Virus genome (UHGV): UHGV-0797466
Strand: one strand, 5' to 3'
Source of the DNA: a virus
Length of the DNA stretch: 9,708 nt
The notes beneath the pieces were generated by a model that had not been told where the DNA came from, searched no databases, and saw only the letters and a list, made by a program, of their open reading frames with translations. Made by a program: the position numbers and the translations under genes. Of this stretch, positions 1-9,708 are shown piece by piece. Positions within the stretch are counted from its first letter, which is position 1, and every line of letters starts with the position of its first letter.

Positions 1-13
1 GCCAGGAGGACCC

Positions 14-38
14 GTAAAAAAGCCGGATTGCTCCGGCT
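14..38 (-). terminator. Rho-independent terminator downstream of the SSB gene
   Basis: Hairpin AGCCGGA (21-27) / TCCGGCT (32-38) with a 4-nt loop; the A-run at 16-21 is a U-run on the minus-strand transcript. It lies 16 nt past the SSB stop at 54-56. The same block (about 85% identical) recurs at 8751-8775. Confidence 0.6.
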
Positions 39-53
39 TCTGTCACTCGTCGC

Positions 54-476
54 TTAAAACGGTATGTTATCCCCGTACGGATCATCATTCCCCGCCTGTT
101 GTTTTGCCCTGTTCAGCGCGTCAGTAGCCTGGCCCTGTTGACCTTTTTTGCCGCCCAGTCGCGCCGTTCGCGCACTGATTACACTGTCTGCGATAACCTG
201 CCAGCCCTGCCGCGTTTCTCCGTTCTGCCCAGTCCACTGGCTGATCTGCATGTTACCCGCCACGCTCAGGAGTTCACCCTTGCGGTGCCTTTCCAGTGCT
301 TCGGCCTGTCTGCCAAATGCCAGGACGGATAACCACATCGTCGCCGTTCCGTCATCTGCCTGGCTGCACGGAAGGGGGACCGCCATACGCGCCAGCGTCA
401 TCGGTGTGCCCTTGCTGGTCTGTTTTACCTGCGGGTCGTCCACCAGCCGCCCGTAAGCGGCTATCTGTGCTGTCAT
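54..476 (-). CDS. ssb: Single-stranded DNA-binding protein (SSB, OB-fold) of phage/plasmid type
   Basis: 140-aa ORF. The core resembles E. coli SSB as remembered (TMWLSVLAFGRQAEALERHRKGELLSVAGNMQISQWTGQNGETRQ vs [42 protein letters not shown]). It has a Gly/Gln-rich linker and an acidic tail ending DNIPF (E. coli SSB ends DDDIPF). ATG at 474-476 overlaps the upstream stop (ATGA); SD-like GGAGAGGTGG lies upstream. Confidence 0.85.
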   Translation of the reverse strand: MTAQIAAYGRLVDDPQVKQTSKGTPMTLARMAVPLPCSQADDGTATMWLSVLAFGRQAEALERHRKGELLSVAGNMQISQWTGQNGETRQGWQVIADSVISARTARLGGKKGQQGQATDALNRAKQQAGNDDPYGDNIPF

Positions 477-751
477 GATTCCACCTCTCCGGTTTTAACG
501 TTGATGGTTGTTACCTGTTCCGCTTCGGCAATCTCCCGTTCTGTCAGCGTGGCAAAGTTTGCCGCCGTCGTGGTCATGAATGCGCTTATCAGTTCGGGAT
601 GTGCTTTCGCGTATCCTTCCCCCGCGTGGCGGTCTATCGTTCTGATTGCCACCTTTAAAGCGTGCTCTGTCATGTCTAACGCGCGATATTTCGGTTCTGT
701 TCTGTCTCTGCGTTTTTTGAGTGATTTATTAAATTTCCCTGAAGTGTGCAT
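473..751 (-). CDS. Hypothetical small basic protein (92 aa) between the origin and ssb
   Basis: ATG at 749-751 preceded by SD-like GAGGGGG (762-768, about 10-nt spacer). Stop overlaps the ssb start. Lysine/arginine-rich N-terminus. No family recognised. Confidence 0.5.
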   Translation of the reverse strand: MHTSGKFNKSLKKRRDRTEPKYRALDMTEHALKVAIRTIDRHAGEGYAKAHPELISAFMTTTAANFATLTEREIAEAEQVTTINVKTGEVES

Positions 752-801
752 ATTTATTTTTACCCCCTCGTTTAAAAAGTTTTGAGTTGTGCCTCCCCTT
801 G

Positions 802-1026
802 TCTACCTTATCTACCTTAGTGGCCCTCATGCCAGTAATGGCGCGGCTTTCAGCGGGGTAGAGTGCTTTTATCCACTATCTACCCCGTGTCTACCTCCCT
901 GTCTGACTCAGGTAAAATCAGGTAGAGAGGGTAGATAGTGGGTAGACAGTAAAAAAAAGCTATCTACCTAACTTAATGCACTGAATTAAATGTATTTTTC
1001 TTTACTCAGGTAGACAGGGTAGACAG
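802..1026. repeat. Iteron field, putative replication origin
   Basis: At least 11 copies of the hexamer core TCTACC / GGTAGA in about 225 bp: TCTACC at 802, 811, 879, 890, 963; GGTAGA at 857, 921, 930, 941, 1009, 1018. Extended form GGTAGACAG appears three times. An A8 tract (951-958) and an AT-rich stretch (971-1003) are embedded. It sits directly downstream of the primase/helicase gene, as P4 ori/crr iterons sit near alpha. Confidence 0.7.
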
Positions 1027-1039
1027 CAATTACAAAAAA

Positions 1040-2794
1040 TTATAAAAACGCGTCGCACTCGTCTGTTGTTATTGCGTTAGTCTGCGTTACTCCCTTAACT
1101 TTCCGCGTAATATATTCATGTCCGTAAACTTTCGCGGCTGGCTTCATAGCCTTGCCAAAGTCATTTACGTTTAGCGGTTTGCTCCTGCCTGCGTACGCCA
1201 TAAACGCCAGATAGACGCGGTAAAGGCTGTTTCTGGTCGTGTACTTCACTGAATCGCCACCGCCGCCCATCATCAGGCCGCGTGCTTCCTCCAGAAAATT
1301 CAGGAACTGGCAAAACTCAATAACCGGATCCGTCTGTTGCTTTATTGCCAGTGCTTCATCACCGTCACGCTGTTCCAGTAGTAAAGCCCGTGCTTTCTCA
1401 GAGTCGGTAAAGTTCGCCAGCAATCGGCGGATAATGACAGGGATTTCAGCCGCAATCTTTTCCGGTAGCTCCCTGTCTTTTTCGGCCTCACTGACGATAT
1501 TGTCGAAACGGAAAATCACGCGACGACGTGCCACACCTCCGGCCCGTTCGGTGAATATCATCGGGTTGTTGTTGGTCGCCAGCACCACCGCCCTGATTAC
1601 CGCCGTAAAACGCTTTTCATATTTCGGGTTAATTTCCACGGGGTCACCGCCCGTGATTTTCTTGATGCCCGTTCCTTCGCCTGTATATTTCGGCTGGTCA
1701 GCCAGGACGATAAGACGACTCCCGACAACCTGCGCACGTCCACCAGCATCATCAAGCGATGTCATTTCAGCGCTTACCGTGTTCTGTTTCCCTGCCAGAA
1801 GGCTGGCTATGTGCGTGAATGTACTTTTACCGCTCCCGCCGTCTCCGGTGGCCTCAATAAACATCTGCCAGTCGTACCGGTTCGCCATAATCATGTACAG
1901 CGCGGCACATATACGCATCATCTTGCGCGGGTCTTTTCCGGCTGCGTGCTTAAGCCATTTATGAAAGTTTGGCGCGTTATCGCGGATGTTCTCCCCTGGT
2001 GCTGGTGGCGTGTACTCAATGCCGTTGTTCGTGGTGATCCAGTTCTCCGGCGTGTGCGGGGAAAATTCCCCCGTTTTCAGGTCAAGCGCACCATTGGCGA
2101 ACGGCAGCAAATCGCCGGACGGCTCGCCCATTGGTTCGGCAATAACTTTTAACGCTTCCACGGCGTTATTGATTACGCGCTTGCTGAAAGTGGCCCTGTG
2201 CTCTGAATAGATCGCCACCATTTCGCGGCTAAGTTCCATTGTGCTGACCGGACACCATACCCCGCCGCGCCATACGTGAACGATTTCACTTTCAGGATGT
2301 ACGCAAACGCCATCAAAGCGATCGGCAAGCAGCTGCGCGCGCTCACTGTCCGCCATCTGCGAAAGTTGCGCCTTTTGCTTTACCGGAAGCTCAATGACCA
2401 GACCATCAGAAAGATTCTGGCGCTCACGGGCCAGATATTCGCGCCAGTTCTCCACCTTCTGACCGTGCATACCATCAGGGTAAAAATTTGCATCCTGAAT
2501 ATCTGCCGCCGCCAGCTTCTGACCAATCTTTTTGGTCTCCACTAAATCCAGTTCTCCGGCCTGGTACAGCCTTACGCGCTTTTTCCCATCCGGAACAATT
2601 TTCAGCGCATCAAGTTCGGCAAGCTGATTTGGCCCAAGCCACACAGGCGGCACATTATCGCCGGATGCGGGGCCGTCCTGCTCCTGCCACTGTTTTGCAT
2701 GTGACCACGCATCACTACCCGCGAAAATAATTACCTCTGTGTCTTTGTGTTTTATTCCGCGTGGTTGTTTTTTTACGTTCGGTGCCAGTTTCAT
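1040..2794 (-). CDS. P4 alpha-like primase/helicase (phage/plasmid primase with P-loop NTPase domain)
   Basis: 584-aa ORF with Walker A motif GDGGSGKST. General resemblance to P4-family primase C-terminal / D5-type NTPase proteins. ATG at 2792-2794 overlaps the upstream stop (ATGA); SD-like CAGGGGT lies 5 nt upstream. An iteron field lies immediately downstream. Confidence 0.85.
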   Translation of the reverse strand: MKLAPNVKKQPRGIKHKDTEVIIFAGSDAWSHAKQWQEQDGPASGDNVPPVWLGPNQLAELDALKIVPDGKKRVRLYQAGELDLVETKKIGQKLAAADIQDANFYPDGMHGQKVENWREYLARERQNLSDGLVIELPVKQKAQLSQMADSERAQLLADRFDGVCVHPESEIVHVWRGGVWCPVSTMELSREMVAIYSEHRATFSKRVINNAVEALKVIAEPMGEPSGDLLPFANGALDLKTGEFSPHTPENWITTNNGIEYTPPAPGENIRDNAPNFHKWLKHAAGKDPRKMMRICAALYMIMANRYDWQMFIEATGDGGSGKSTFTHIASLLAGKQNTVSAEMTSLDDAGGRAQVVGSRLIVLADQPKYTGEGTGIKKITGGDPVEINPKYEKRFTAVIRAVVLATNNNPMIFTERAGGVARRRVIFRFDNIVSEAEKDRELPEKIAAEIPVIIRRLLANFTDSEKARALLLEQRDGDEALAIKQQTDPVIEFCQFLNFLEEARGLMMGGGGDSVKYTTRNSLYRVYLAFMAYAGRSKPLNVNDFGKAMKPAAKVYGHEYITRKVKGVTQTNAITTDECDAFL

Positions 2795-3090
2795 TTCTTA
2801 CCCCTGAATACGTTAAGCATCTTTTTTATTTCCTGAATATTGGCGCGTGCTTTCTCCCTGCTGGTGGGCACGTTACGCGGTACGGCCTGCACCAGAGAAA
2901 AATCACGATCGAACTGATAAACAGGCATCACGCAATCATATTCGTAGCCTTCACGACGGTAGGTTACGCGCCGTTCCTCCACGCCCTTAATCATTACCGT
3001 GCCGCCGTACTGGTCGCGGTAAATATCACCGCGCATGAATTTAGTGCGAGTTTTGCCACTGGCAGTTAAGCCAGAATATTTAAGTTTCAT
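2791..3090 (-). CDS. Hypothetical protein (99 aa), translationally coupled to the primase gene
   Basis: ATG at 3088-3090 with GGAGAA 8 nt upstream. Stop overlaps the primase start. No family recognised. Confidence 0.6.
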   Translation of the reverse strand: MKLKYSGLTASGKTRTKFMRGDIYRDQYGGTVMIKGVEERRVTYRREGYEYDCVMPVYQFDRDFSLVQAVPRNVPTSREKARANIQEIKKMLNVFRGKK

Positions 3091-3095
3091 TATTT

Positions 3096-3326
3096 TTATT
3101 CTCCGGTGTGGAGCGCTTTATTATTCTCGTGAATTGCCATAGCCTTATTGAGTTCATCAATAACAGGTGTCAATAATGTCTGAACAGCGGCAAACATTAA
3201 TGATGAATGATCTTCGCCACCTTCCGGCACTTCAATTAATTTAATTAACAACGCATTCATTTCGCGTGCTTTAATTAATGCGTTTTCAGAGTGGATTAAT
3301 ACTTCAAAAGGGATTTTATGCATCAC
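3096..3326 (-). CDS. Hypothetical small protein (76 aa) in the AT-rich island
   Basis: Starts ATGATG at 3321-3326 with AGGGAGA 7 nt upstream. Overlaps the upstream gene by 11 nt. Sequence is visibly AT-rich. Confidence 0.5.
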   Translation of the reverse strand: MMHKIPFEVLIHSENALIKAREMNALLIKLIEVPEGGEDHSSLMFAAVQTLLTPVIDELNKAMAIHENNKALHTGE

Positions 3327-3546
3327 AAATTTTCTCCCTTATTCTTTTAATGTCCTCATTAAGGATGTCTGTAACTTTTATCAGCGAGTTTTTGGCAATT
3401 ATTTTTATTGTTTTAAGTTTTCTTTTGTCGTGCTCCGACTGTGATTTTCTCTCCATAATCTCCACCATGTGGGTAACATCAACGAGCGCACGTATCAGTA
3501 TTTGCATTGCTTCTTCTGCTGCGTCCGGTGTGGTTTTATTGCACAT
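3316..3546 (-). CDS. Hypothetical small protein (76 aa) in the AT-rich island
   Basis: ATG at 3544-3546 with strong SD GGAGGGG 3-5 nt upstream. Overlaps the 3' end of the 89-aa ORF in another frame. Charged, probably helical. Confidence 0.5.
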   Translation of the reverse strand: MCNKTTPDAAEEAMQILIRALVDVTHMVEIMERKSQSEHDKRKLKTIKIIAKNSLIKVTDILNEDIKRIREKICDA

Positions 3547-3764
3547 GTACCCCTCCGCATTTTTTCGTTAGAAATAAGCGTTCTTCTTTCCTGTTCATCG
3601 CTCAGGAATACGCAGACCTCACCGCTAAGGCGTTTAAGTAAGCCGATGATTGCCCCTGATTCGCTGTCGGTCATCATGCCAGGGTAATCCTCTGCCAGTG
3701 CGCAAATAACTTCGATTTGGTGGGCGCGTTCTGCTGCCTGTTGTAGTGTGATTTCCTGACTCAT
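3495..3764 (-). CDS. Hypothetical protein (89 aa)
   Basis: ATG at 3762-3764 overlaps the stop of the upstream Icd-like gene (ATGA). The C-terminal about 17 aa overlap the next ORF, so the true 3' end is uncertain. Confidence 0.45.
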   Translation of the reverse strand: MSQEITLQQAAERAHQIEVICALAEDYPGMMTDSESGAIIGLLKRLSGEVCVFLSDEQERRTLISNEKMRRGTCAIKPHRTQQKKQCKY

Positions 3765-4222
3765 AAGCCTACCCCCTGACGAATACGGGCGACAAAAATC
3801 AGATGTGCGTGCGGCAGCTGTGCACGTGCTTCGCGCTCAGTGGCAGCGGTAACGGTGAATATTGCAATGCTGTCTGTCAGGCACTGCATAAAGCGCCAGA
3901 CAAAATAAGGGCGTGCGGATACAGCCATGTGAAAGGCTCCCAGATGAATTTTAAGGAGTCTCGCTACTACGCTGTCAAACATGGTGGCGAGACGTAACAG
4001 GGTTGACAGACTGGTCATCTGGAAACCAGCGAGCACAAAGGCTCCCCCGTTACGCCCCGCCATAATGCGGGTATGGGTAGGTTTACGGACACAAAAAAAC
4101 CGCTTATCGGATGTGGGCGGCTGTCCGCCAGATGTATTCAGGCTGTCAAACCCGGTCGCCATGTGGGCGACGGGGGAAGCATACAGCCCCGTGATAATTT
4201 TTTGCAAGCGGTTTTTACGCAT
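3761..4222 (-). CDS. Ash/Icd-like protein (153 aa) with C-terminal Icd-like motif
   Basis: C-terminus TEREARAQLPHAHLIFVARIRQG matches the remembered Icd-like motif (SE.EAR ... LSFAAR). ATG at 4220-4222 overlaps the upstream stop (cATGcgTAA); SD-like AGGGG lies 7 nt upstream. An internal start at 3928 (GGGAG SD) is an alternative. Confidence 0.6.
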   Translation of the reverse strand: MRKNRLQKIITGLYASPVAHMATGFDSLNTSGGQPPTSDKRFFCVRKPTHTRIMAGRNGGAFVLAGFQMTSLSTLLRLATMFDSVVARLLKIHLGAFHMAVSARPYFVWRFMQCLTDSIAIFTVTAATEREARAQLPHAHLIFVARIRQGVGL

Positions 4223-4418
4223 GATATGACCCCTGGCGAATACGGGCAGCGAATACCATCACGCAGCCAGCCGGAGATTGCTGACGCGCTTCCTGTTCGC
4301 TGGTGGCCTCGATGGTAATCACGCGCGGTTGTGCCGTGCTCAGGGCGATAAAACGCCAGATGTATTTATTCAGGTTGTACGAGTCCCGCCCTTGCGGGTG
4401 TCTGGTATAATTTCTCAT
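4215..4418 (-). CDS. Host cell division inhibitor Icd-like small protein (67 aa)
   Basis: This is the C-terminal 67 codons of the 382-aa ORF in the track; the rest is judged spurious. ATG at 4416-4418 with GAGG 5 nt upstream. C-terminus SEQEARQQSPAGCVMVFAARIRQG is paralogous to the next gene and fits the Icd-like motif. Confidence 0.6.
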   Translation of the reverse strand: MRNYTRHPQGRDSYNLNKYIWRFIALSTAQPRVITIEATSEQEARQQSPAGCVMVFAARIRQGSYHA

Positions 4419-4439
4419 AGCTACCTCGATACTTTCGCT

Positions 4440-4614
4440 ATCGTTGGTGGTTAGAAGCCCTGCATGTGTTCCAGCACTGCGGGGCTTTGCTGTACATACA
4501 CCACAATCATTAGTGTGTGTACAGATTAAATTTAAGTGCGCTACAGTGTCAAGTGTTTTATTTACACACCTTTTGGTGTAATGTATGCACACCTCAAAAT
4601 AACCGGACATTCTG
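4440..4614. promoter_or_regulatory. Divergent promoter/operator region between the leftward operon and the RHH gene
   Basis: Lies between divergent starts at 4418 (-) and 4615 (+). Imperfect 9-bp-stem hairpin AAGCCCTGC (4453-4461) / GCGGGGCTT (4478-4486). Palindromic motif TTACAC...GTGTAA / ACACC-TTTT-GGTGT at 4561-4580 and related TACATACACC at 4492-4501. Decamer AACCGGACAT at 4600-4609. Confidence 0.5.
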
Positions 4615-4920
4615 ATGGCAACAGGAAATATCAACAGCAGATCGCAAATGAAAAATATCCGCTTCCCCCATGATGTAATCGAGGAAATGGAAAATTCGAA
4701 AACGGAAGGGGAAACAATAGCCGCTTTCGTGATTACAGCCGTTCGCGGTGAGATCGCCCGCCGCCAGGCAGAAGGAAGCGGAGAAAATCCCCTGGTTTCT
4801 TCGCTCGATGCACTGGCGCAGGTGGAAAAAATCGGAGTCAAAGCAGCCGAGGAGATCGGGCAACTCATCACCGTCGCGCGTGAAGAACTCCAGCGTCGCA
4901 AGGCCAAAGAGCAGGAGTGA
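4615..4920 (+). CDS. Arc/Mnt-like ribbon-helix-helix DNA-binding protein, candidate satellite repressor
   Basis: Segment KNIRFPHDVIEEMEN aligns with the P22 Arc N-terminus as remembered (FNLRWPREVLDLVRK), followed by a helical, charged C-terminal extension. It is the only convincing plus-strand gene, divergent from the main operon, and followed by a strong terminator. Start could be M1 (4615) or M12 (4648); neither has a strong SD. Confidence 0.65.
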   Translation: MATGNINSRSQMKNIRFPHDVIEEMENSKTEGETIAAFVITAVRGEIARRQAEGSGENPLVSSLDALAQVEKIGVKAAEEIGQLITVAREELQRRKAKEQE

Positions 4921-4962
4921 CCATCACCAGCGCCGTGGTGTAAGGTATTACGGCGCATTGCT

Positions 4963-5151
4963 ATGCAGGACAACACAATGACCGATAAAGAATTGACCAA
5001 AACATTATCACCGGCACGGAAAAGACGGCGCAGAAAGATAGAGCATGAATCAGAAAGATTCGCGCCATGTGCTTTTGCCCTTGAGCAATTCCTTAAAGAG
5101 TACAGGGAAAAGCGCTCATTGCAGGTATGGCAACGAACTGAACCAGACTGA
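4963..5151 (+). CDS. Possible small basic protein (62 aa) downstream of the RHH gene
   Basis: ORF in the same frame as the RHH gene, separated from it by a single TGA (4918-4920). No convincing SD. It fills most of the gap before the terminator. Weak call. Confidence 0.3.
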   Translation: MQDNTMTDKELTKTLSPARKRRRRKIEHESERFAPCAFALEQFLKEYREKRSLQVWQRTEPD

Positions 5152-5246
5152 TTGCATTGCCCACCAGCCTGATAACGGCTATCATCCCCGTGCTTATGTT
5201 TGGGATCACACACACAAACGGCGCAGCGGGTTATCTGTTCAGAAAG

Positions 5247-5274
5247 GCGGCTCCATTTCGGGGCCGCTTTTTTT
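5247..5274 (+). terminator. Rho-independent terminator ending the rightward (RHH) transcription unit
   Basis: 8-bp stem GCGGCTCC (5247-5254) / GGGGCCGC (5260-5267) with one G-U pair, loop ATTTC, followed by T7 (5268-5274). Confidence 0.75.
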
Positions 5275-5396
5275 ATACCTGAAAAACCCCAATTTTGTTG
5301 TTTTTCAGTTTCACCAGGGCGAACGAATCCCCGCCCACGTTCTGGCGTATATTCAATCTTCATGGTTATAGCTCTGTGTTCAGATGATTGATGTGT

Positions 5397-5413
5397 GGCG
5401 GCTGCGTGCCGCC
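5397..5413 (-). other. GC-rich hairpin just 3' of alpA
   Basis: Perfect 6-bp stem GGCGGC / GCCGCC with loop TGCGT, 8 nt past the alpA stop. No U-run follows on the minus strand, so it is not a canonical terminator. Confidence 0.3.
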
Positions 5414-5420
5414 AGCGTGA

Positions 5421-5609
5421 TTAATGAACTGCCTTGCAGCTATCCTTCCAGGCCAGAACCTCGGATAAAGACCAGCCAACGGAACGACCGCCAAGTTTAC
5501 GACGTGATGGGAATTGTCCGGCCTTTTCCAGGCGGTAGCGACACGTACGGCTAAGGCCGGTTAGTTTTTCGCATTCTTTTTCACGTATAAACCGATCAGT
5601 GCTTAACAC
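5421..5609 (-). CDS. alpA: AlpA-family HTH regulator (excisionase-like)
   Basis: C-terminal part LTGLSRTCRYRLEKAGQFPSRRKLGGRSVGWSLSEVLAWK resembles the AlpA family (ITGLS...YRL...G.FP....LG.R.VGW...E...W). The track ORF (5421-5690) starts at TTG. I prefer the GTG at 5607-5609, which has a strong SD (GGGGGG, 5-nt spacer) and gives 62 aa, the usual AlpA size. Confidence 0.75.
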   Translation of the reverse strand: MLSTDRFIREKECEKLTGLSRTCRYRLEKAGQFPSRRKLGGRSVGWSLSEVLAWKDSCKAVH

Positions 5610-5760
5610 TATTGCCCCCCTTTCGTTTCTTAAAGAGTCATCAGGTGTCTTATTGTGTCGTATTGTTCCCGCTAGAGTGATGAATGGCAAATACTGAGGA
5701 TATATGATTTACAGAAAATGAAACAGTAAGAATAAAATCTTTTAAATTCATGTTAATACA

Positions 5761-5791
5761 AAGGCATAAAATATTGTTCCATGCCTTTTTT
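5761..5791. terminator. Hairpin with flanking T-run in the int-alpA intergenic region
   Basis: Stem AAGGCAT (5761-5767) / ATGCCTT (5781-5787), 13-nt loop, T6 at 5786-5791 on the plus strand. The minus-strand side is moderately U-rich. Could terminate int read-through; modest confidence. Confidence 0.35.
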
Positions 5792-5880
5792 CTCGCTCTT
5801 TAAAGAGTGATTCGCTAGTGTACAAAAAACCAGTAACACATTAAAAATCAGCTACTTATAAATCCGTACGCTTTTTCGCC

Positions 5881-5930
5881 TCTTGTTCGTAGTTGTTCCA
5901 CATTGTTGCTCATTGTTGCACGTTGTATCT
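5881..5930. repeat. Five 10-bp-phased TTGTT repeats just 3' of int
   Basis: Decamers tcTTGTTcgt, agTTGTTcca, caTTGTTgct, caTTGTTgca, cgTTGTatct begin at 5881, 5891, 5901, 5911, 5921, in exact 10-bp register. Confidence 0.5.
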
Positions 5931-5974
5931 GTTCGCATATCCAGTATGCGCATACTGAAAAAACACGAAAAAAA

Positions 5975-7204
5975 TTATTTTCTTCTGGCTACGGGTAGCG
6001 TGGTTACGTTTTCATGTGTTCCCGCCAGTATCCCTAACCGCTCCGTCCACATATCCAGCGCATTGCGTTTCGCATCCAGATAACGGGAATGATTATAAAC
6101 TCGCTGCATTCCTGGCATCTGGTGGCCTGTAAGCTGCTCCACGACATGCGGATCAACGCCTAAATCGTTCAGCATGGTTGTAAAGGTGCGCCGGATGTCA
6201 TGCAGTGACCAGTGAGGGTGATTAAGCCTCCTGTGCGCTAATCTTCCATACTGCGATACGCTGGCCTCCTGTTTCACTTCCCCCAGCAATAAGCCCGTGT
6301 GCCTGTTCTGCTCCACCAGCTGCGTGACGAACGGCAGGATCGCTTCCGGTATGGGCCGGAATATTGCGACCTTCGTTTTGCTGTGCTCCTTCGGAACGGT
6401 CCATAGCATTTCCGTAAAATCCCACTCCCCGATCTCCGATAACCTCAGTTCTACCGTTCTGGCTCCGAAGACAATCAGGAGGCGGATTAACGCGACGTAG
6501 TAAGGGGAGAATATTTTTTTGTCCAGTGCCTGCAATAATTCGCCAAGTTCTTTGTTACTTAAGACACGTTCGCTTATATCCGGTTTTTTCCCAACGTCCG
6601 CCACGTTCAGATCGTCCAGAACGTTGCTGATTGCATAGCGCCGCCTACGGCAGAACTTAAGCGCCTGTTTGCACGCCTGTAGCACGAATCCGGCAGTAAC
6701 AGGCGTTCGCTTTGCCACCTGGTCAAAACAGGCCAGCCAGTGCCGTAGCTCGCATTTATCCAGCGGCATAGCACCAATCTGCTGTATTACGTGATTATTA
6801 AGTCGCCTTTTCAGGGCGATATAATCCACGCGGTTTTCCTTTACGTAATACTCAAGCCAGTAGGTGAGCGCATCGCCAACCGTTACGGGCTTTAACGCTT
6901 CCTGTACGGTGTAATTCATCTCATGACGTGGATTTTTCCCCTCAGCCAGCCATGTGCGACACTGTGCGGCTTTTTCCCTGGCTGCTTTCAGGCTCAGATC
7001 AGGATAACTTCCCAGCTTAATGCGTTCGGGTCGTGTCTCCCTTCCCGTTCCGGCCCTGTATGTGAAATACCAGGTCAATTTCCCTGATGTTAAATATTTC
7101 ACGCTCAGGTTTCCGCCATCACTATAAAACGTGTTTTTCTCCGCTGGCTTACCATGAAGTTTCCTTAGCAAGGTATCGCTCAGTTTGTTCATTGCTCTGC
7201 TCAC
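5975..7204 (-). CDS. int: Tyrosine recombinase, P4-like integrase
   Basis: 409-aa ORF. N-terminal arm-binding-like region (SDGGNLSVKYLTSGKLTWYFTYR ... KLGSYPDLSLKAAREKAAQ) resembles P4-family integrases. C-terminal catalytic region contains HDIRRT and a Tyr near the end (RVYNHSRYL). GTG at 7202-7204 with SD GAGGGGG 6 nt upstream; an in-frame ATG at 7192 is an alternative. Confidence 0.9.
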   Translation of the reverse strand: MSRAMNKLSDTLLRKLHGKPAEKNTFYSDGGNLSVKYLTSGKLTWYFTYRAGTGRETRPERIKLGSYPDLSLKAAREKAAQCRTWLAEGKNPRHEMNYTVQEALKPVTVGDALTYWLEYYVKENRVDYIALKRRLNNHVIQQIGAMPLDKCELRHWLACFDQVAKRTPVTAGFVLQACKQALKFCRRRRYAISNVLDDLNVADVGKKPDISERVLSNKELGELLQALDKKIFSPYYVALIRLLIVFGARTVELRLSEIGEWDFTEMLWTVPKEHSKTKVAIFRPIPEAILPFVTQLVEQNRHTGLLLGEVKQEASVSQYGRLAHRRLNHPHWSLHDIRRTFTTMLNDLGVDPHVVEQLTGHQMPGMQRVYNHSRYLDAKRNALDMWTERLGILAGTHENVTTLPVARRK

Positions 7205-7228
7205 GTTTTACCCCCTCTTTACGAAAAA

Positions 7229-7620
7229 GTGACTACACCAGTGACTACACCGTTCGGTGCACTGTATAGAAACAACGTGGAACAAATAGACACAAGAAAT
7301 ATACAGGCGGGTCATCTTTCCAGGGGGAAGCGCGCTAATTCATGAGGGGCGTTAATGTTGATATGGGGATCCCCATAACGGGGCTACCGGATTTTTTTCC
7401 GGTTTAACTGTTAATCAGGCTGGTGGGCTTTACCTGTTTTGTAGGAGTGGTCATTATGACCATTCAGACAATGACCTTAATCAGAACTTTTCGCTAAAAA
7501 ATGACGTTGGTCACGTCGTCCGGAAAGCACAAAATCCCGTCAATTTTTAATTAACGGTTAAACCGTCTTTTGTCACGGCGTGTCACTGGTTGTCACTCTC
7601 CGTCACGGTATGTCGCTACT
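7229..7620. other. attP-like region: arm-type repeats on both sides of a palindrome-rich central segment
   Basis: Tandem 12-bp repeat GTGACTACACC(A/G) at 7229-7240 and 7241-7252, 25 bp upstream of int. Five 10-bp-phased repeats at 7571-7620 (TGTCACggcg, TGTCACtggt, TGTCACtctc, cGTCACggta, TGTCgCtact). GTCAC is the reverse complement of GTGAC, and GTCACT resembles the lambda Int arm-site core (AGTCACTAT) as remembered. Between them: perfect palindromes TATGGGGATCCCCATA (7362-7377) and GGTCATTATGACC (7449-7461), and a hairpin at 7386-7403. Confidence 0.5.
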
Positions 7621-7622
7621 CG

Positions 7623-7904
7623 TTAACGCCGTAACCGCTCCGGCTTCTTCCAGTGGTACGTAATTTTCTCCGTTTCCCGATACAGTGCCACGCGGCGATT
7701 GTAGGCCAGCATTTCAAGAACGCGGATCCGTATGTTGCGCATATCCACATCATTAAGCTGGATACCATCACGGCGCATCACCTCAGCAACCACACGCGCG
7801 TAATTTTCGGCGGTCACGCTGTCCGGCTGCGTGGCCTGTTCGTCATGCTGCTGGCTGATTCCGGTAACGCGGCGGATTAATCCCAGTAGTTCGGCTTCTG
7901 TCAT
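7623..7904 (-). CDS. Hypothetical protein (93 aa) between cos and the att region
   Basis: The track ORF (7623-8102) would run across the cos site. The internal ATG at 7902-7904 (MTEAELLGLIRR...) has an SD-like GGGGG upstream and leaves cos intact. No family recognised. Confidence 0.5.
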   Translation of the reverse strand: MTEAELLGLIRRVTGISQQHDEQATQPDSVTAENYARVVAEVMRRDGIQLNDVDMRNIRIRVLEMLAYNRRVALYRETEKITYHWKKPERLRR

Positions 7905-7938
7905 TGTGCCCCCATCGCTCTGATAGTCTGGTGTCGTC

Positions 7939-8116
7939 GGGTCCTTCCTGGAATTATGGCCCGTTACGGGGCGGCGACCTCGCGCGTTTTCACTATTTAT
8001 GAAAATTTTTCGGGATCCATGTCCGGTTTCTCTGCAAGTTAACCATATGAAAAATATAAAAACATGCTTTCCATGAACCGGACATGCGCAAAAAACAGAC
8101 ACTAAAACCGGACATC
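7939..8116 (+). other. Lambda-type cos site (cosQ-like flank, cosN, cosB-like repeats), plus-strand orientation
   Basis: 7969-7980 is GGGCGGCGACCT, the lambda 12-nt cohesive end as remembered. The flanks resemble the lambda left end (CGCGcGTTTTCaCTATTTATGAAAATTTTtCGG) and right end (GGGTCCTTcC..GG..CGTTACG). cosB-like repeats follow: ATGTCCGGTT (8019-8028, inverted), AACCGGACAT (8076-8085), AACCGGACAT (8106-8115), with an AT-rich spacer that could be an IHF site. Confidence 0.75.
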
Positions 8117-8183
8117 GAACCAGTTAACCGAAAGTGTGCACAAATCACATGCATTGCTGCGAGTGATTAACAAGTTATCGGCT

Positions 8184-8618
8184 TTACTGTTCTGTATCGG
8201 CTGATTGCTCCATGCTGGCACGGCGAACGCTTATGGCATGACGCCACCCAGCCAGAAAGCCAGCCATTTTATTTCGTGCCTTGCTCACATCTTCCGGTGA
8301 ATAGCCGTAAATCTGCAAACCTTCATCAAATCGATGTTCTGTTTCTTCACTGGAGTACTCGTCACGCTCAGATGAAAGCAGCCTGGCAAACATAATTTTT
8401 TCCAGCGCACTGGTTTCTACGTGATATCTGATGGTCTCAAGACGGCTTTTACCTGAAGACCAAAGCAATGTATGCCCGATGTGATAACCGCCAGACTTTC
8501 CGCGATCCGCATTAAGATACGGCATCCCCTGTTTGGTCCATGCGCGAATAGTGGTTCTGTTAACCTTGAAATGTTCAGCTATTTCCTGCTGACTTACAAA
8601 ACAAGCTTTATCAATCAT
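8184..8618 (-). CDS. Nu1-like terminase small subunit homolog (winged-HTH); candidate Rpp-type packaging redirector
   Basis: N-terminus VSQQEIAEHFKVNRTTIRAWTKQGMPY aligns with lambda gpNu1 (VNKKQLADIFGASIRTIQNWQEQGMPV) as remembered. 144 aa. ATG at 8616-8618 with AAGGT SD. No terminase large subunit follows, which fits a satellite TerS-like protein rather than a phage terminase operon. Confidence 0.8.
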   Translation of the reverse strand: MIDKACFVSQQEIAEHFKVNRTTIRAWTKQGMPYLNADRGKSGGYHIGHTLLWSSGKSRLETIRYHVETSALEKIMFARLLSSERDEYSSEETEHRFDEGLQIYGYSPEDVSKARNKMAGFLAGWRHAISVRRASMEQSADTEQ

Positions 8619-8685
8619 AATGTTACCTTAACTGCATGGTTAAATATTAATCAAGTGGTGGTGGTGTCACCTTCACGGAAAAACG

Positions 8686-8750
8686 TCATAAATAGCGAAA
8701 ACCCGCGAGGTCGCCGCCCCGTAACGGGTCCATAATTCCAGGAAGGACCC
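8686..8750 (-). other. Second lambda-type cosQ-cosN module, inverted relative to 7939-8003, upstream of the Nu1-like gene
   Basis: The reverse complement of 8686-8750 reads GGGTCCTTCCTGGAATTATGGACCCGTTACGGGGCGGCGACCTCGCGGGTTTTCGCTATTTATGA. cosN is at 8708-8719 on the minus strand. The 22 nt after cosN match lambda exactly as remembered. No AACCGGACAT repeats lie between this cosN and the gene start. Confidence 0.7.
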
Positions 8751-8775
8751 GTAAAAAAGCCGGATTTCTCCGGCC
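8751..8775 (-). terminator. Rho-independent terminator downstream of the 137-aa gene, abutting the cosQ-like flank
   Basis: Hairpin GCCGGA (8759-8764) / TCCGGC (8769-8774) with loop TTTC; the A-run at 8753-8758 is a U-run on the minus-strand RNA. It lies 7 nt past the stop at 8781-8783 and is paralogous to the terminator at 14-38. Confidence 0.6.
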
Positions 8776-8780
8776 TTGTC

Positions 8781-9194
8781 TCAGATGGTTTTCAGTATGC
8801 GATCGATGTCGCCGTCATCGCCCTGGTTTCTGCCATCGTATGCCATGCCAGCTGATACGGCTTGCGGGCTGTGCATGTCCATAAAGTTTTCAAAGGCTGC
8901 GGTAAGTTCCGGCGCAACCTTCGGACGTTCCTGCTCTATGGTCATGCTAAGGATGCTTTTAGCCGTACCAACATCGATACAAGGCACGTTTGCCATTGCA
9001 CGCAACAGCGGCTGATAGTCTTTATGCTCATGAAGCGCCATAATCGCATCAGCGCGCGGCTTGTCCTGCTCTTCCAGTTTGTTTAGTTGATATACGGCCT
9101 CATAGGTTGATAAACCTCTGTCAGCCATTGCCCGCGCTTCGGCTTTAAATTTACTCGCCAGCGGTAGCGTCATGATGCTTTCATTCGTTGCCAT
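8781..9194 (-). CDS. Hypothetical protein (137 aa) between the gpD-like gene and cos
   Basis: ATG at 9192-9194 with AGGGGGA SD. Acidic C-terminal region. No family recognised. A capsid-related role is suggested by position only. Confidence 0.55.
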   Translation of the reverse strand: MATNESIMTLPLASKFKAEARAMADRGLSTYEAVYQLNKLEEQDKPRADAIMALHEHKDYQPLLRAMANVPCIDVGTAKSILSMTIEQERPKVAPELTAAFENFMDMHSPQAVSAGMAYDGRNQGDDGDIDRILKTI

Positions 9195-9206
9195 CGTTCC
9201 CCCTGC

Positions 9207-9542
9207 TTATCGGGCCAGCGGCTGAACGGATACGCCGGAACCCGCAAAGGCGGCGCATTTTTTCGCATCGGTGTCGACGCTCTCAGGCCAGTTAACGGCG
9301 GCAATATTGAATATCCCCGTCTTGTAACACTGTGCTGATTTCTGCTTTGACGTGTCCACAGGGTACGAGGTCAGATAAACAGCCTTGCCAGATTCCTTAC
9401 CATCCCACGGCTTAAACTCGCCATTGTCCGCCAGCATCAGCGGGGTAAATTCCTGAATAACGCCAGCATCAGCGGCAAAATGTACCAGCGTCGTGGCGAC
9501 CTGCTGACTGCCTGCAAATAACTCAATGTATGGAGTGTCCAT
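9207..9542 (-). CDS. Head decoration protein, lambda gpD-like
   Basis: 111 aa. TPLMLADNGEFKPWDG ... YKTGIFNIAAVNWPESVDTDAKKCAAFAGSGVSV matches lambda gpD as remembered (TPLMLDTSSRKLVAWDG ... [35 protein letters not shown]). ATG at 9540-9542. Confidence 0.8.
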   Translation of the reverse strand: MDTPYIELFAGSQQVATTLVHFAADAGVIQEFTPLMLADNGEFKPWDGKESGKAVYLTSYPVDTSKQKSAQCYKTGIFNIAAVNWPESVDTDAKKCAAFAGSGVSVQPLAR

Positions 9543-9553
9543 AGAATCCCCCG

Positions 9554-9708
9554 TTAACCAATTTTGACGGTAACAAATTTGCGAATATCTGCCGGAACCG
9601 GCTGCGGTGCGCTGTGCGTCTGCACGTACTCAATCGCCGGATCGCCGTCCTCAATCCAGTTTTTCGGGTAAAAAATGGTCCGAGCAGGATAAAGACATGC
9701 ACGACCCA
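9554..9708 (-). CDS. 3' end of an upstream ORF running off the window (possibly scaffold/protease-like by synteny with lambda Nu3/C before D)
   Basis: Open minus-strand frame ending at TAA (9554-9556). Hand-translated C-terminus: ...WIEDGDPAIEYVQTHSAPQPVPADIRKFVTVKIG. Function is inferred from position only. Confidence 0.35.
   Translation of the reverse strand, partial: GRACLYPARTIFYPKNWIEDGDPAIEYVQTHSAPQPVPADIRKFVTVKIG

What the first reader, a model, noticed from the sequence alone, without database searches (positions are those of the whole stretch)
5881..7620. Integrase flanked by two distinct, exactly 10-bp-phased five-copy repeat arrays
Five decamers with a TTGTT core start at 5881, 5891, 5901, 5911 and 5921, 45-95 bp past the int stop. 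Five decamers with a TGTCAC core start at 7571, 7581, 7591, 7601 and 7611, upstream of int. Exact helical phasing suggests cooperative one-face binding by a small DNA-bending protein, as lambda Xis does at its phased sites. AlpA is an excisionase-like winged-helix protein. The two arrays may be recombination-directionality or regulatory filaments for different proteins.
Basis: seen in the sequence. Interest (0 to 1): 0.5.

Follow-up and report, generated by a model that had tools for sequence, protein, structure and literature searches.

The report
Phased protein-binding arrays in an E. coli phage satellite
Both repeat arrays are real, but only the TTGTT one belongs to the cut-and-paste machinery of this E. 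coli phage satellite (probably landing sites for its small AlpA regulator), while the TGTCAC one is an optional add-on that resembles phage replication-origin repeats.

Summary
The window is a circularly permuted E. coli PICI: int, alpA, C4/Icd, primase, capsid, Rpp and lambda cos. It matches an element integrated in tqsA. Both arrays are real and non-random.

TTGTT array (5881-5940). It is one of four clusters of 10-bp-phased TTGT(T)C sites. Two of the others sit in the attP arms beside tandem 12-mers, and one overlaps the predicted alpA promoter. Across 20 or so related elements the 12-mers change with the Int N-terminal arm-binding domain. One flank base of the TTGT sites changes with the AlpA variant. 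I read the 12-mers as Int arm-type sites and the TTGT sites as AlpA (Xis-like) sites. This fits published AlpA autoactivation and AlpA-induced, int-dependent excision in EcCICFT073, which carries the same arrays. Binding itself is inferred, not shown.

TGTCAC array (7571-7620). It is independent of Int type, AlpA type and packaging type. It is absent from the functional EcCICFT073 and EcCIEDL933. In the prophage it lies 11 kb from int. Phased GTCAC arrays in viral contigs mostly lie inside replication-initiator genes upstream of DnaB, so it looks like an iteron-type array. Its role is unresolved.

This is a new member of a known kind.

The parts
5881..5940 (-). Array A. Five to six helically phased sites, AACAA on the coding (minus) strand and TTGTT on the plus strand. 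It lies between the int stop and a terminator-like hairpin, about 215-265 bp upstream of the predicted alpA transcription start. Proposed distal AlpA-binding array.
   Evidence: 0 of 2000 simulations. All 14 fetched relatives with the 62-aa AlpA keep 5-6 phased ACAA-type units in this stretch, one or two of them variant in some (AGCAA in EcCIEDL933, ACACC in L014 and L017). Core columns have lower entropy than spacer columns (0.38 versus 0.91 bits, p=0.0006).
5640..5670 (-). Promoter-proximal phased sites (GGAACAATAC GACACAATAA GACACC on the coding strand). They overlap the predicted -10 and the start of the alpA promoter.
   Evidence: Period-10 repeat at 5645-5666. Promoter-like match TTGCCA-17-AACAAT at 5690-5662. 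Relatives differ here by 10-bp indels and have up to four phased (A/C)CAA units.
5763..5790 (.). GC-stem hairpin flanked by A and T runs (GGCAT...ATGCC). It looks like a terminator on both strands and separates int and array A from the alpA promoter.
   Evidence: Read from the sequence. Conserved in the alignment.
5421..5609 (-). alpA. A 62-aa AlpA/Xis-family winged-helix protein, and the proposed binder of the TTGT sites.
   Evidence: Pfam PF05930 at E=5e-17. PHROG 'excisionase and transcriptional regulator'. PDB 8c3t, an AlpA family protein, at E=2e-6.
5975..7204 (-). int. A P4-type tyrosine recombinase with an N-terminal arm-binding domain.
   Evidence: Pfam PF13356 (Arm-DNA-bind_3) at 1.4e-18 and PF00589.
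7228..7251 (+). Tandem 12-mers AGTGACTACACC x2 (GGTGTAGTCACT on the coding strand). Proposed Int arm-type sites. Here they lie in a fused copy of the two arm modules.
   Evidence: 100% tandem repeat. The two prophage copies are identified. The 12-mer type covaries with the Int N-domain type.
7267..7296 (-). Three phased TTGT(T/G) sites adjacent to the 12-mers (arm module). Proposed AlpA (RDF) sites of the att arm.
   Evidence: minus-strand TTGTT at 7271 and 7281, TTGTG at 7291. Conserved in all relatives, including genera with only 50-56% Int identity.
7222..7262 (.). Window junction. This 41-bp stretch is identical in the two arm modules of the prophage. The window passes from the int-side module directly into the far-end module, skipping about 195 bp that include the true core TGCTGTTAT.
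   Evidence: The core and its flanks are absent from the window.
7571..7620 (+). Array C. Five phased units with a GTCAC core (GTGAC on the coding strand), starting 3 bp after the stop of the last gene. An accessory, iteron-like array.
   Evidence: Conserved with 4-5 copies at the ends of cf-PICIs at the clpS, phoQ, thiM and yifB sites. Absent from L002, L005, EcCIEDL933 and EcCICFT073. Found in 282 of 5426 E. coli genomes. It resembles the ori arrays of phage replisome-organiser genes.
7503..7566 (.). AT-rich stretch with hairpins next to array C: ACGGTTAAACCGT followed by a T run on the plus strand, and two terminator-like hairpins on the minus strand.
   Evidence: The RNA fold z-score of -3.0 is carried by these hairpins.
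7623..7904 (-). Last gene of the element. A 93-aa protein of unknown function (phrog_1561), conserved in Rpp-type PICIs and cf-PICIs.
   Evidence: No homology to the initiator N-domain (hhalign probability 0.1%).

Best explanation
What the window is (shown). It is a Gram-negative phage-inducible chromosomal island of the Rpp/lambda-cos type, captured in circularly permuted form.

Recombination and regulatory code (inferred). The element uses two kinds of short site.
1. Tandem 12-mers (GGTGTAGTCACT x2) occur once in each attP arm. I read them as the arm-type sites of the P4-type integrase N-terminal domain.
2. TTGT(T)C sites are repeated three to six times at exactly one helical turn. I read them as sites for the 62-aa Xis-like protein AlpA, bound head to tail on one face of the DNA.

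Where the AlpA-type arrays lie.
- Next to the Int arm sites in both att arms. There AlpA would bend the DNA and turn Int toward excision.
- Over the alpA promoter.
There it would serve AlpA autoregulation, for example as an upstream activating or loading array or as a titration buffer that sharpens the switch.

The TGTCAC array. It is not part of this machinery. It is an optional module in the hypervariable far end of PICIs and cf-PICIs. Its form matches the iteron arrays inside phage replisome-organiser (O-like) genes. Most likely it binds such a phage-encoded initiator in trans, or it is an inert remnant of such an origin.

Status of each step.
- Shown: the anatomy, the conservation, the covariation and the distribution.
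- Taken from published work on EcCICFT073: AlpA autoactivation and AlpA-driven, int-dependent excision.
- Inferred: physical binding of AlpA or Int to these sites, and any role for the TGTCAC array.
For: Identity of the element.
- 99.9% match to an 11.4-kb element in tqsA, in two pieces that show the permutation.
- Gene content. C4 antisense RNA. Two lambda cosN copies.

The att site.
- The true att core is TGCTGTTAT, by comparison with K-12 tqsA.
- Each arm carries the module [3-4 phased TTGT] - [tandem 12-mers].

Int assignment.
- The 12-mer GTAGTCAC goes with Int N-domain 'SVKYLTSGKL' at tqsA and yifB.
- GTAGTTAA goes with 'S(V/I)RHSTSGLL' at roxA, yifB and abgR.
- GTGTGGTCAG goes with the thiM type, GTGTAGTCAG with other genera, and GGTGTATCAA with Erwinia.
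- Both 12-mer types occur at the same chromosomal site (yifB). The 12-mer therefore follows the protein domain, not the target.

AlpA assignment.
- The TTGT arrays are identical across the two Int N-domain types.
- Site position 7 follows the AlpA variant: C in 24 of 25 sites with the 62-aa type, G in 12 of 13 with the 69/74-aa type, and A or G with the distant type.
- L002 and L010 have differing AlpA variants but nearly the same Int N-domain (two substitutions in the arm-binding stretch) and closely similar 12-mers (one base apart in one L010 copy); their TTGT sites differ at this position.
- AlpA homologues are present in every element that has these arrays.

Array A is under selection.
- Core versus spacer entropy is 0.38 versus 0.91 bits, p=0.0006.
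- All 14 fetched relatives with the 62-aa AlpA keep five to six phased units, a few of them variant.

Experimental anchor.
- EcCICFT073 carries array A, the proximal array and both arm modules.
- In that element AlpA activates PalpA, and its overexpression causes int-dependent excision and replication (PMC6092414).
- EcCIEDL933 also carries them and needs alpA for induction.

Precedent. RDF sites are typically direct repeats one helical turn apart, and 186 Apl binds both att and promoters (abstract of PMC7498355).

Array C.
- Distribution.
- The viral-contig scan gave at least 120 loci in 64 sequence contexts. In about 30 contexts the array lies inside a 270-400 aa initiator ORF, and in 17 a DnaB helicase gene follows.
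- E. coli phage genes of this kind are annotated as replication protein O, replisome organiser or primosomal protein I.
- One such E. coli-type array shares TGTCACGGCGTGTCACT with array C.
Against: - No binding experiment exists for AlpA or Int on any of these sites.
- The covariation rests on only three or four independent lineages. Site drift could be lineage-linked rather than AlpA-linked.
- RDF sites on both att arms are unusual. Lambda has them on one arm only.
- Array A is 1.3 kb from the core and about 240 bp from the predicted promoter, so its precise role is a guess. Elements with the 69/74-aa AlpA lack it altogether.
- In EcCICFT073 AlpA did not change Pint activity.
- For array C, no cognate initiator is encoded in the element.
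- Array C is not inside an initiator gene or next to a DnaB gene, and the AT-rich stretch lies on the opposite side from the phage origins.
- The known helpers lambda, phi80, HK106 and HK446 were not among the 60 of 75 phage records listed as carrying this initiator N-domain.
- Six GTCAC-array contexts lie beside integrase genes, so an arm-type reading is not excluded.
Confidence: 0.6

Rival explanations
1. The TTGT arrays, including the array downstream of int, are arm-type sites of the integrase N-terminal domain. The tandem 12-mers would then bind something else.
For: Arm-type sites are expected on both arms, and the TTGT arrays are on both arms. Int has an arm-binding domain. Integrases can autoregulate.
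Against: The 12-mers switch with the Int N-domain type, even at the same chromosomal site. The TTGT arrays stay identical across those types. The one variable position of the TTGT site follows the AlpA type. A 5-bp core with free spacers is atypical of arm-type sites. Array A is 1.3 kb from the core.
Confidence: 0.12
2. The TTGT arrays work without a dedicated element protein. They would be intrinsically bent DNA or sites for a host nucleoid protein that shapes the intasome and the alpA promoter.
For: The phasing is exactly helical. The motif is conserved down to 50% Int identity in other genera, as a host factor would allow.
Against: AACAA is not a classical A-tract. Site position 7 differs between AlpA types within the same host species. 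Specific GT and AC core positions are conserved rather than base composition.
Confidence: 0.1
3. The TGTCAC array is a functionless, hitch-hiking remnant of a phage replication origin. It would have been picked up by recombination into the hypervariable far end of the island.
For: It is optional: 282 genomes against 872 to 1018 for neighbouring island segments. It is absent from functional islands. It sits in a mosaic region. It shares a 17-bp string with a phage initiator-gene array.
Against: It is kept with 4-5 in-phase cores in islands at five insertion sites. Of about eight substitutions between copies, seven fall in the spacers. There is no flanking homology to the phage gene.
Confidence: 0.25
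4. The TGTCAC array is a set of arm-type sites, or a decoy, for a lambda-family integrase of a co-resident or helper prophage.
For: From my own knowledge, the lambda arm-type consensus C/AAGTCACTAT contains GTCAC, and lambda P'1-P'3 are tandem. Six of the 64 GTCAC-array contexts in viral contigs lie beside integrase genes.
Against: Only the 5-bp core matches. There is no partner core or second arm nearby. Far more contexts are replication initiator genes.
Confidence: 0.08
5. The TGTCAC array is a recombination-directionality or int-regulatory filament site for a second small protein of the island.
For: It has exact helical phasing, and in the circular form it lies about 370-420 bp upstream of int.
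Against: It is independent of Int and AlpA type. It is absent from EcCICFT073 and EcCIEDL933, which excise and integrate. In the prophage it is 11 kb from int.
Confidence: 0.03

Closest known systems
Phased excisionase (RDF) sites: lambda Xis X1-X1.5-X2, coliphage 186 Apl, P2 Cox, P4 Vis
   Same: A small winged-helix protein of the Xis/AlpA kind. Its sites are direct repeats one helical turn apart and lie next to an Int arm-type site. As with Apl, Cox and Vis, the same protein is also a transcription regulator with a second set of sites at a promoter (abstract of PMC7498355; the Vis and Cox details are from my own knowledge).
   Different: Arrays are present on both att arms. There is an extra five- to six-copy array 1.3 kb from the core, just downstream of int. 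AlpA of PICIs is described as an activator and master inducer, not only as an RDF. Binding is not yet demonstrated.
Arm-type sites of heterobivalent tyrosine recombinases (lambda Int, P4 Int)
   Same: The Int has an N-terminal arm-binding domain. Repeated sites flank the core on both arms, about 80-155 bp from the crossover. The sites covary with the N-domain.
   Different: This description fits the tandem 12-mers at 7228-7251, not either array in the finding.
EcCICFT073 (Rpp-type PICI) and EcCIEDL933 (cf-PICI)
   Same: Same int/alpA family, same arm modules and same array A. The window shares the capsid, decoration, Rpp and cos module with EcCICFT073.
   Different: Both prototypes lack the TGTCAC array. 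The window's element is inserted in tqsA rather than between phoQ and roxA, and has the GTAGTCAC type of 12-mer.
Iteron arrays inside phage replication-initiator genes (lambda O/ori arrangement; replisome-organiser plus DnaB modules)
   Same: Four or more GTCAC cores at 10-bp spacing, often as (T/A)GTCAC(G/A). An E. coli phage example is near-identical over 17 bp.
   Different: The island's array is intergenic. It has no initiator or DnaB gene beside it and no downstream purine-rich or AT-rich tract. No cognate initiator is encoded in the island.

Membership tests
RDF (Xis/AlpA-type) binding-site array | Three or more direct repeats spaced about one helical turn apart | tested here: met
   TTGT cores lie at exact 10-bp spacing: 5-6 in array A, 3-4 in each att arm, and 2-4 at the alpA promoter.
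RDF (Xis/AlpA-type) binding-site array | Located in an att arm adjacent to an Int arm-type site | tested here: met
   Met for the arm copies, which lie 12-18 bp from the tandem 12-mers in both arms and at 7267-7296 in the window. Array A itself (5881-5940) is 1.3 kb from the core, so it fits the 'second, regulatory site set' pattern rather than the arm pattern.
RDF (Xis/AlpA-type) binding-site array | The element encodes a Xis/AlpA-family winged-helix protein | tested here: met
   PF05930 at E=5e-17, the PHROG excisionase/regulator family, and PDB 8c3t.
RDF (Xis/AlpA-type) binding-site array | Sites covary with the RDF and not with the integrase | tested here: met
   Site position 7 is C, G or A/G according to AlpA type, while the Int N-domain and the 12-mers stay essentially unchanged. 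Only three or four independent lineages support this.
RDF (Xis/AlpA-type) binding-site array | Physical, cooperative binding and DNA bending by the RDF, and a requirement for excision | not testable with these tools
   Needs EMSA or footprinting and excision assays. Only indirect support exists: AlpA-induced, int-dependent excision in EcCICFT073.
Integrase arm-type sites | Repeated sites on both arms that covary with the Int N-terminal domain | tested here: not met
   Not met for either array in the finding. It is met instead by the tandem 12-mers at 7228-7251.
Gram-negative PICI (Rpp/cos type) | int and alpA, a primase with a downstream repeat-rich ori, an Rpp-like TerS homologue preceded by lambda-type cosN, a size of about 11 kb, and a specific att site | tested here: met
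   The cos-rpp layout matches that described in PMC9026076. The window is syntenic with EcCICFT073.
Iteron-type phage replication origin (replisome-organiser/O-like) | Four or more phased iterons | tested here: met
   GTCAC x4 plus GTCGC at 10 bp. The cores have the same form as in about 30 initiator-gene contexts.
Iteron-type phage replication origin (replisome-organiser/O-like) | Array embedded in or beside the cognate initiator gene, with an adjacent helicase or loader gene and an unwinding tract | tested here: not met
   The array is intergenic after a 93-aa gene. hmmsearch finds no initiator N-domain in the island. hhalign probability is 0.1%. There is no DnaB gene nearby. The AT-rich stretch is on the other side.
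lambda-type cosB (TerS/Rpp sites) | Sites lie within about 50-170 bp of cosN on the terS/rpp side | tested here: not met
   cosN copies are at 7969-7980 and 8708-8719. Array C is 350 bp or more away, and it also occurs in cf-PICIs that lack Rpp and lambda cos.

The most novel reading that the evidence does not exclude
The far end of PICIs and cf-PICIs is a swap-in slot for binding-site arrays aimed at helper-phage proteins. The TGTCAC array would be a copy of a helper-type replication-origin iteron set. The satellite would use it to capture the phage initiator, either to fire an extra helper-dependent origin or to titrate the initiator and slow helper replication.
Probability: 0.2. Interest if true: 0.65.

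Novelty: new member of a known kind. Interest (0 to 1): 0.4.

Why it matters
AlpA is the master switch of Gram-negative PICIs, but I found no description of its DNA targets or of the attP anatomy of these islands in the papers I could search. The comparative analysis gives a concrete, testable site map:
- Int arm sites are tandem 12-mers that follow the Int N-domain type.
- AlpA sites are phased TTGT(T)C arrays in both att arms, at the alpA promoter and in a large array downstream of int.

This map would explain how one 62-aa protein could couple autoactivation to excision. It also supplies the mutations needed to test that in EcCICFT073.

The TGTCAC result is mainly a correction, because the array is not part of recombination. 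It also points to an optional module of unknown role that looks like a phage origin.

Tried and rejected
1. Array C as cosB or Rpp sites. I was led there by a GTGACAC string in the proposed R3-PICI position and by a lambda-like TTTTCCGGTTTAA at about 7397. I rejected it because cosN lies at 7969 and 8708, and array C also occurs in cf-PICIs without Rpp and is missing from Rpp-type L002, L005 and EcCICFT073.

2. Window 7222-7262 as the att core. Rejected. It is a fusion of two arm modules. The true core is TGCTGTTAT at the element ends.

3. Array C as Int arm sites, because GTCAC also occurs in the tqsA-type 12-mer. Rejected. Array C is unchanged in islands whose 12-mers are GTTAA or GGTCAG.

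4. The 93-aa last protein as a relative of the GTCAC-binding initiator N-domain. hhalign probability is 0.1%, and hmmsearch of all six-frame ORFs found nothing.

5. Far-end hairpins as lambda O iterons. The best matches have 4-5 mismatches in 18, close to background. Kept only as a weak lead.

6. RNA roles. Rfam finds only C4 and its targets. For array A the fold z-score is -1.0. For array C it is -3.0, but that comes from the flanking hairpins.

7. Literature searches for AlpA sites in PICIs or for GTCAC iterons found nothing specific.

8. tRNA scan. None found. The island targets a protein-coding gene.
Full report
**Observation**

Both arrays are in the sequence exactly as described.
- On the plus strand, 5881-5930 reads CTCTTGTTCG TAGTTGTTCC ACATTGTTGC TCATTGTTGC ACGTTGTATC.
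- 7571-7620 reads TTGTCACGGC GTGTCACTGG TTGTCACTCT CCGTCACGGT ATGTCGCTAC.
- Exact 5-mers at 10-bp spacing occur four times in each: TTGTT from 5883 and GTCAC from 7572.
- None of 2000 first-order Markov simulations of the window reached a run of four.
- Tandem Repeats Finder reports both with period 10.

**What the window is**

All genes lie on the minus strand:

| Feature | Coordinates |
|---|---|
| SSB | 54-476 |
| D5_N primase | 1040-2794 |
| Short repeats downstream of the primase (likely ori) | 797-1026 |
| Icd-like genes with a C4 antisense RNA | 3980-4184 |
| alpA | 5421-5609 |
| P4-type integrase with an Arm-DNA-bind_3 N-domain | 5975-7204 |
| 93-aa unknown protein | 7623-7904 |
| Nu1-like HTH protein, Rpp-like | 8184-8618 |
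| Scaffold-like protein | 8781-9194 |
| gpD-like decoration protein | 9207-9542 |
| Start of a capsid gene | beyond 9542 |

The window matches an 11.4-kb island in E. coli tqsA at 99.9%. The match is in two pieces: window 1-7262 equals L001 15952-23215, and window 7222-9677 equals L001 11998-14451. The window is therefore a circular permutation, from an excised, concatemeric or packaged form. In the prophage the TGTCAC array lies at the end opposite int. The island is syntenic with EcCICFT073, the prototype Rpp-type PICI. Its cos-rpp layout is the one described for such PICIs (PMC9026076).

**The real att site**

I compared the prophage ends with intact K-12 tqsA. The duplicated core is TGCTGTTAT (L001 11922-11930 and 23334-23342). 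The 41 bp shared by the two window pieces (7222-7262) are not the core. They belong to a roughly 75-bp module that occurs once in each att arm in direct orientation. Each module holds three or four phased TTGT sites, about 12-18 bp of spacer, and two tandem 12-mers (GGTGTAGTCACT x2). The window jumps from one module copy to the other and lacks about 195 bp, including the core. This is either an assembly shortcut across a 41-bp repeat or a genuine deletion. I cannot tell which.

**The TTGTT array in context**

The same motif with the same 10-bp phasing occurs in four places:
- array A (5881-5940);
- the alpA promoter region (about 5640-5670), overlapping a TTGCCA-17-AACAAT promoter-like match;
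- the two att arms, which are fused at 7267-7296 in the window.

All 14 fetched elements with the 62-aa AlpA keep five or six phased ACAA-type units in array A, one or two of them variant in some (AGCAA in EcCIEDL933, ACACC in L014 and L017). These elements are inserted at tqsA, roxA/phoQ, yifB and abgR. Core columns are much more conserved than spacer columns (0.38 versus 0.91 bits, permutation p=0.0006, or 0.006 after correcting for phase). The promoter-proximal array varies by 10-bp indels. The arm arrays persist in islands of other genera with only 50-56% Int identity.

**Which protein binds which site**

A double dissociation separates the two site types.

First, the tandem 12-mers follow the Int N-terminal domain:

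| 12-mer type | Int N-domain | Insertion sites or taxa |
|---|---|---|
| GTAGTCAC | SVKYLTSGKL | tqsA, and yifB L012/L015 |
| GTAGTTAA | S(V/I)RHSTSGLL | roxA, yifB L014, abgR |
| GTGTGGTCAG | thiM-type Int | thiM |
| GTGTAGTCAG | Ints of other genera | L020, L021, L023-L025 (L022 has the variant GTGCAGTCAG) |
| GGTGTATCAA | Erwinia Int | Erwinia |

Both of the first two types occur at the same chromosomal site (yifB). The 12-mer therefore tracks the arm-binding domain, not the target. The TTGT arrays are identical across these Int types.

Second, position 7 of the TTGT site follows the AlpA variant:
- C in 24 of 25 sites with the 62-aa AlpA (R[T/S]CRYRLEK);
- G in 12 of 13 sites with the 69/74-aa AlpA (RTTRYELEKK);
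- A or G with the more distant RTTRY[ML]MEK type.

L002 and L010 differ in AlpA, while their Int N-domains are nearly the same (two substitutions in the arm-binding stretch) and their 12-mers are closely similar (one base apart in one L010 copy). Their TTGT sites differ at this position.

I therefore assign the 12-mers to Int and the TTGT sites to AlpA. The number of independent lineages is small, three or four, and no binding has been measured.

**Fit with experiments on relatives**

EcCICFT073 carries array A in its six-copy form, the promoter-proximal array and both arm modules. In that island:
- AlpA activates its own promoter;
- AlpA overexpression triggers int- and pri-dependent excision and replication;
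- alpA deletion significantly diminishes induction and transfer;
- AlpA did not alter Pint (PMC6092414).

EcCIEDL933 also has these arrays and needs alpA. A small Xis-like protein that binds phased direct repeats both at att and at a promoter has a direct precedent in coliphage 186 Apl (PMC7498355, abstract).

**Likely mechanism for array A**

AlpA would load cooperatively on one face of the DNA. At the arms it would bend DNA next to Int bound at the 12-mers and favour the excisive complex. At the alpA region the promoter-proximal sites and the large upstream array would mediate autoregulation. The specific role of the large array is the least certain step. It could act as an upstream activator, a loop partner or a buffer. 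Islands with the 69/74-aa AlpA lack it. Instead they have two phased GTTCG sites in or near a terminator hairpin just before alpA.

**The TGTCAC array**

It starts 3 bp after the stop of the last gene and is followed on the coding strand by terminator-like hairpins.

Distribution:
- A closely related segment with four or five in-phase cores ends cf-PICIs inserted at clpS, phoQ, thiM and yifB. These have different Int N-domains, both AlpA types, three kinds of replicase and HNH/TerS/TerL packaging instead of Rpp.
- It is absent from Rpp-type L002 and L005, from EcCIEDL933 and from EcCICFT073.
- It occurs in 282 of 5426 complete E. coli genomes. The array A region occurs in 872 and the adjacent arm region in 1018.

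It is thus an optional module, and functional islands do not need it for excision, integration, replication or transfer.

A scan of viral contigs for four GTCAC cores at 10-bp spacing gave at least 120 loci in 64 unrelated sequence contexts.
- In about 30 contexts the array lies inside a 270-400 aa ORF on the same strand, roughly 400 nt from its start. In 17, a DnaB-family helicase gene follows.
- E. coli phage versions of that ORF are annotated as replication protein O, replisome organiser or primosomal protein I.
- One of them contains TGTCACGGCGTGTCACT, which is also present in array C.

This is the lambda-O style of an origin embedded in its initiator gene. The array therefore has the form of an initiator iteron set. 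However, the island encodes no such initiator, and the local layout is not that of an origin. My leading reading is an iteron-type array that a phage initiator could bind in trans, either in use or vestigial. I give this low confidence, about 0.3 for actual initiator binding.

**Comparison with what is known, and novelty**

Array A and its sister arrays behave like RDF site arrays. The 12-mers behave like arm-type sites. The island is a member of the EcCICFT073 family. I found no published AlpA or Int site map for PICIs, so the site assignments are new detail within a well-known kind of system. The TGTCAC array is not a member of the recombination system. Its membership in 'replication origin' fails on context.

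**Verdict**
- Interest is moderate.

Noticed in passing
window 7222-7262 (compare L001 11931-11997 and 23216-23342): The window joins the two att-arm modules through a 41-bp identical stretch. It lacks about 195 bp, including the true core TGCTGTTAT. This is either an assembly shortcut across a short repeat or a deletion derivative that could no longer integrate.
   Followed up: partly
window 9666-9708: The last 43 bases are the exact reverse complement of a capsid-gene segment about 400 bp further on in the prophage (L001 14817-14859). This looks like a fold-back artefact at a contig end.
   Followed up: no
window 7940-8005 (+) and 8685-8750 (-): Two perfect lambda cosN sequences (GGGCGGCGACCT at 7969-7980 on the plus strand and 8708-8719 on the minus strand) lie in a 66-bp inverted repeat of 95% identity that brackets the rpp-like gene. 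L001 and L005 have both copies and L002 has one. Beyond the shared 66 bp, where cosB lies, the copy downstream of rpp is the more lambda-like.
   Followed up: partly
L011 6190-6237; L020-L025 just upstream of alpA; L010 about 6815-6840: In islands with the 69/74-aa or more distant AlpA types, alpA is preceded directly by an intrinsic-terminator-like hairpin plus T run that contains two GTTCG/CGAAC units 10 bp apart. This hints at control of alpA by terminator read-through.
   Followed up: no
L149 17280-17745 (EcCIEDL933); also L002 2900-3340, L006 and L151 far ends: The stretch between the last gene and the att arm is hypervariable. It holds several roughly 100-bp units, each with a short AT-loop hairpin (for example CCTCAAATTGAGG) and a GAAAATATCA(G/A)CGGGTTAG box. 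The resemblance to lambda O iterons is weak, with 4-5 mismatches in 18.
   Followed up: partly
viral contig loci L029-L148: Arrays of (T/A)GTCAC(G/A) at 10-bp spacing, often followed by short purine-rich tandem repeats, are widespread inside replisome-organiser or O-like genes upstream of DnaB helicase genes, in phages of very different GC content. I found no paper that describes this iteron type.
   Followed up: partly
window 797-1026: Clusters of 9-12-bp repeats (CCTTATCTA, TCTACCTCCCTG, GGGTAGACAGT) lie just downstream of the primase gene. This is the expected position of the island's own replication origin.
   Followed up: no
window 3980-4184: A C4 antisense RNA (72.6 bits) and its a1/b1 target lie upstream of Icd-like ORFs, in a P1/P7-type immunity-like cassette inside the satellite. 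The 382-aa ORF at 4215-5363 overlaps annotated pseudogenes in L001 and is probably not a real gene.
   Followed up: no
L001 11794-11937 and 23334-24239: Insertion of the island splits tqsA, the AI-2 exporter gene, at codon 46 or so without restoring it. Carriers should therefore be tqsA-null.
   Followed up: no
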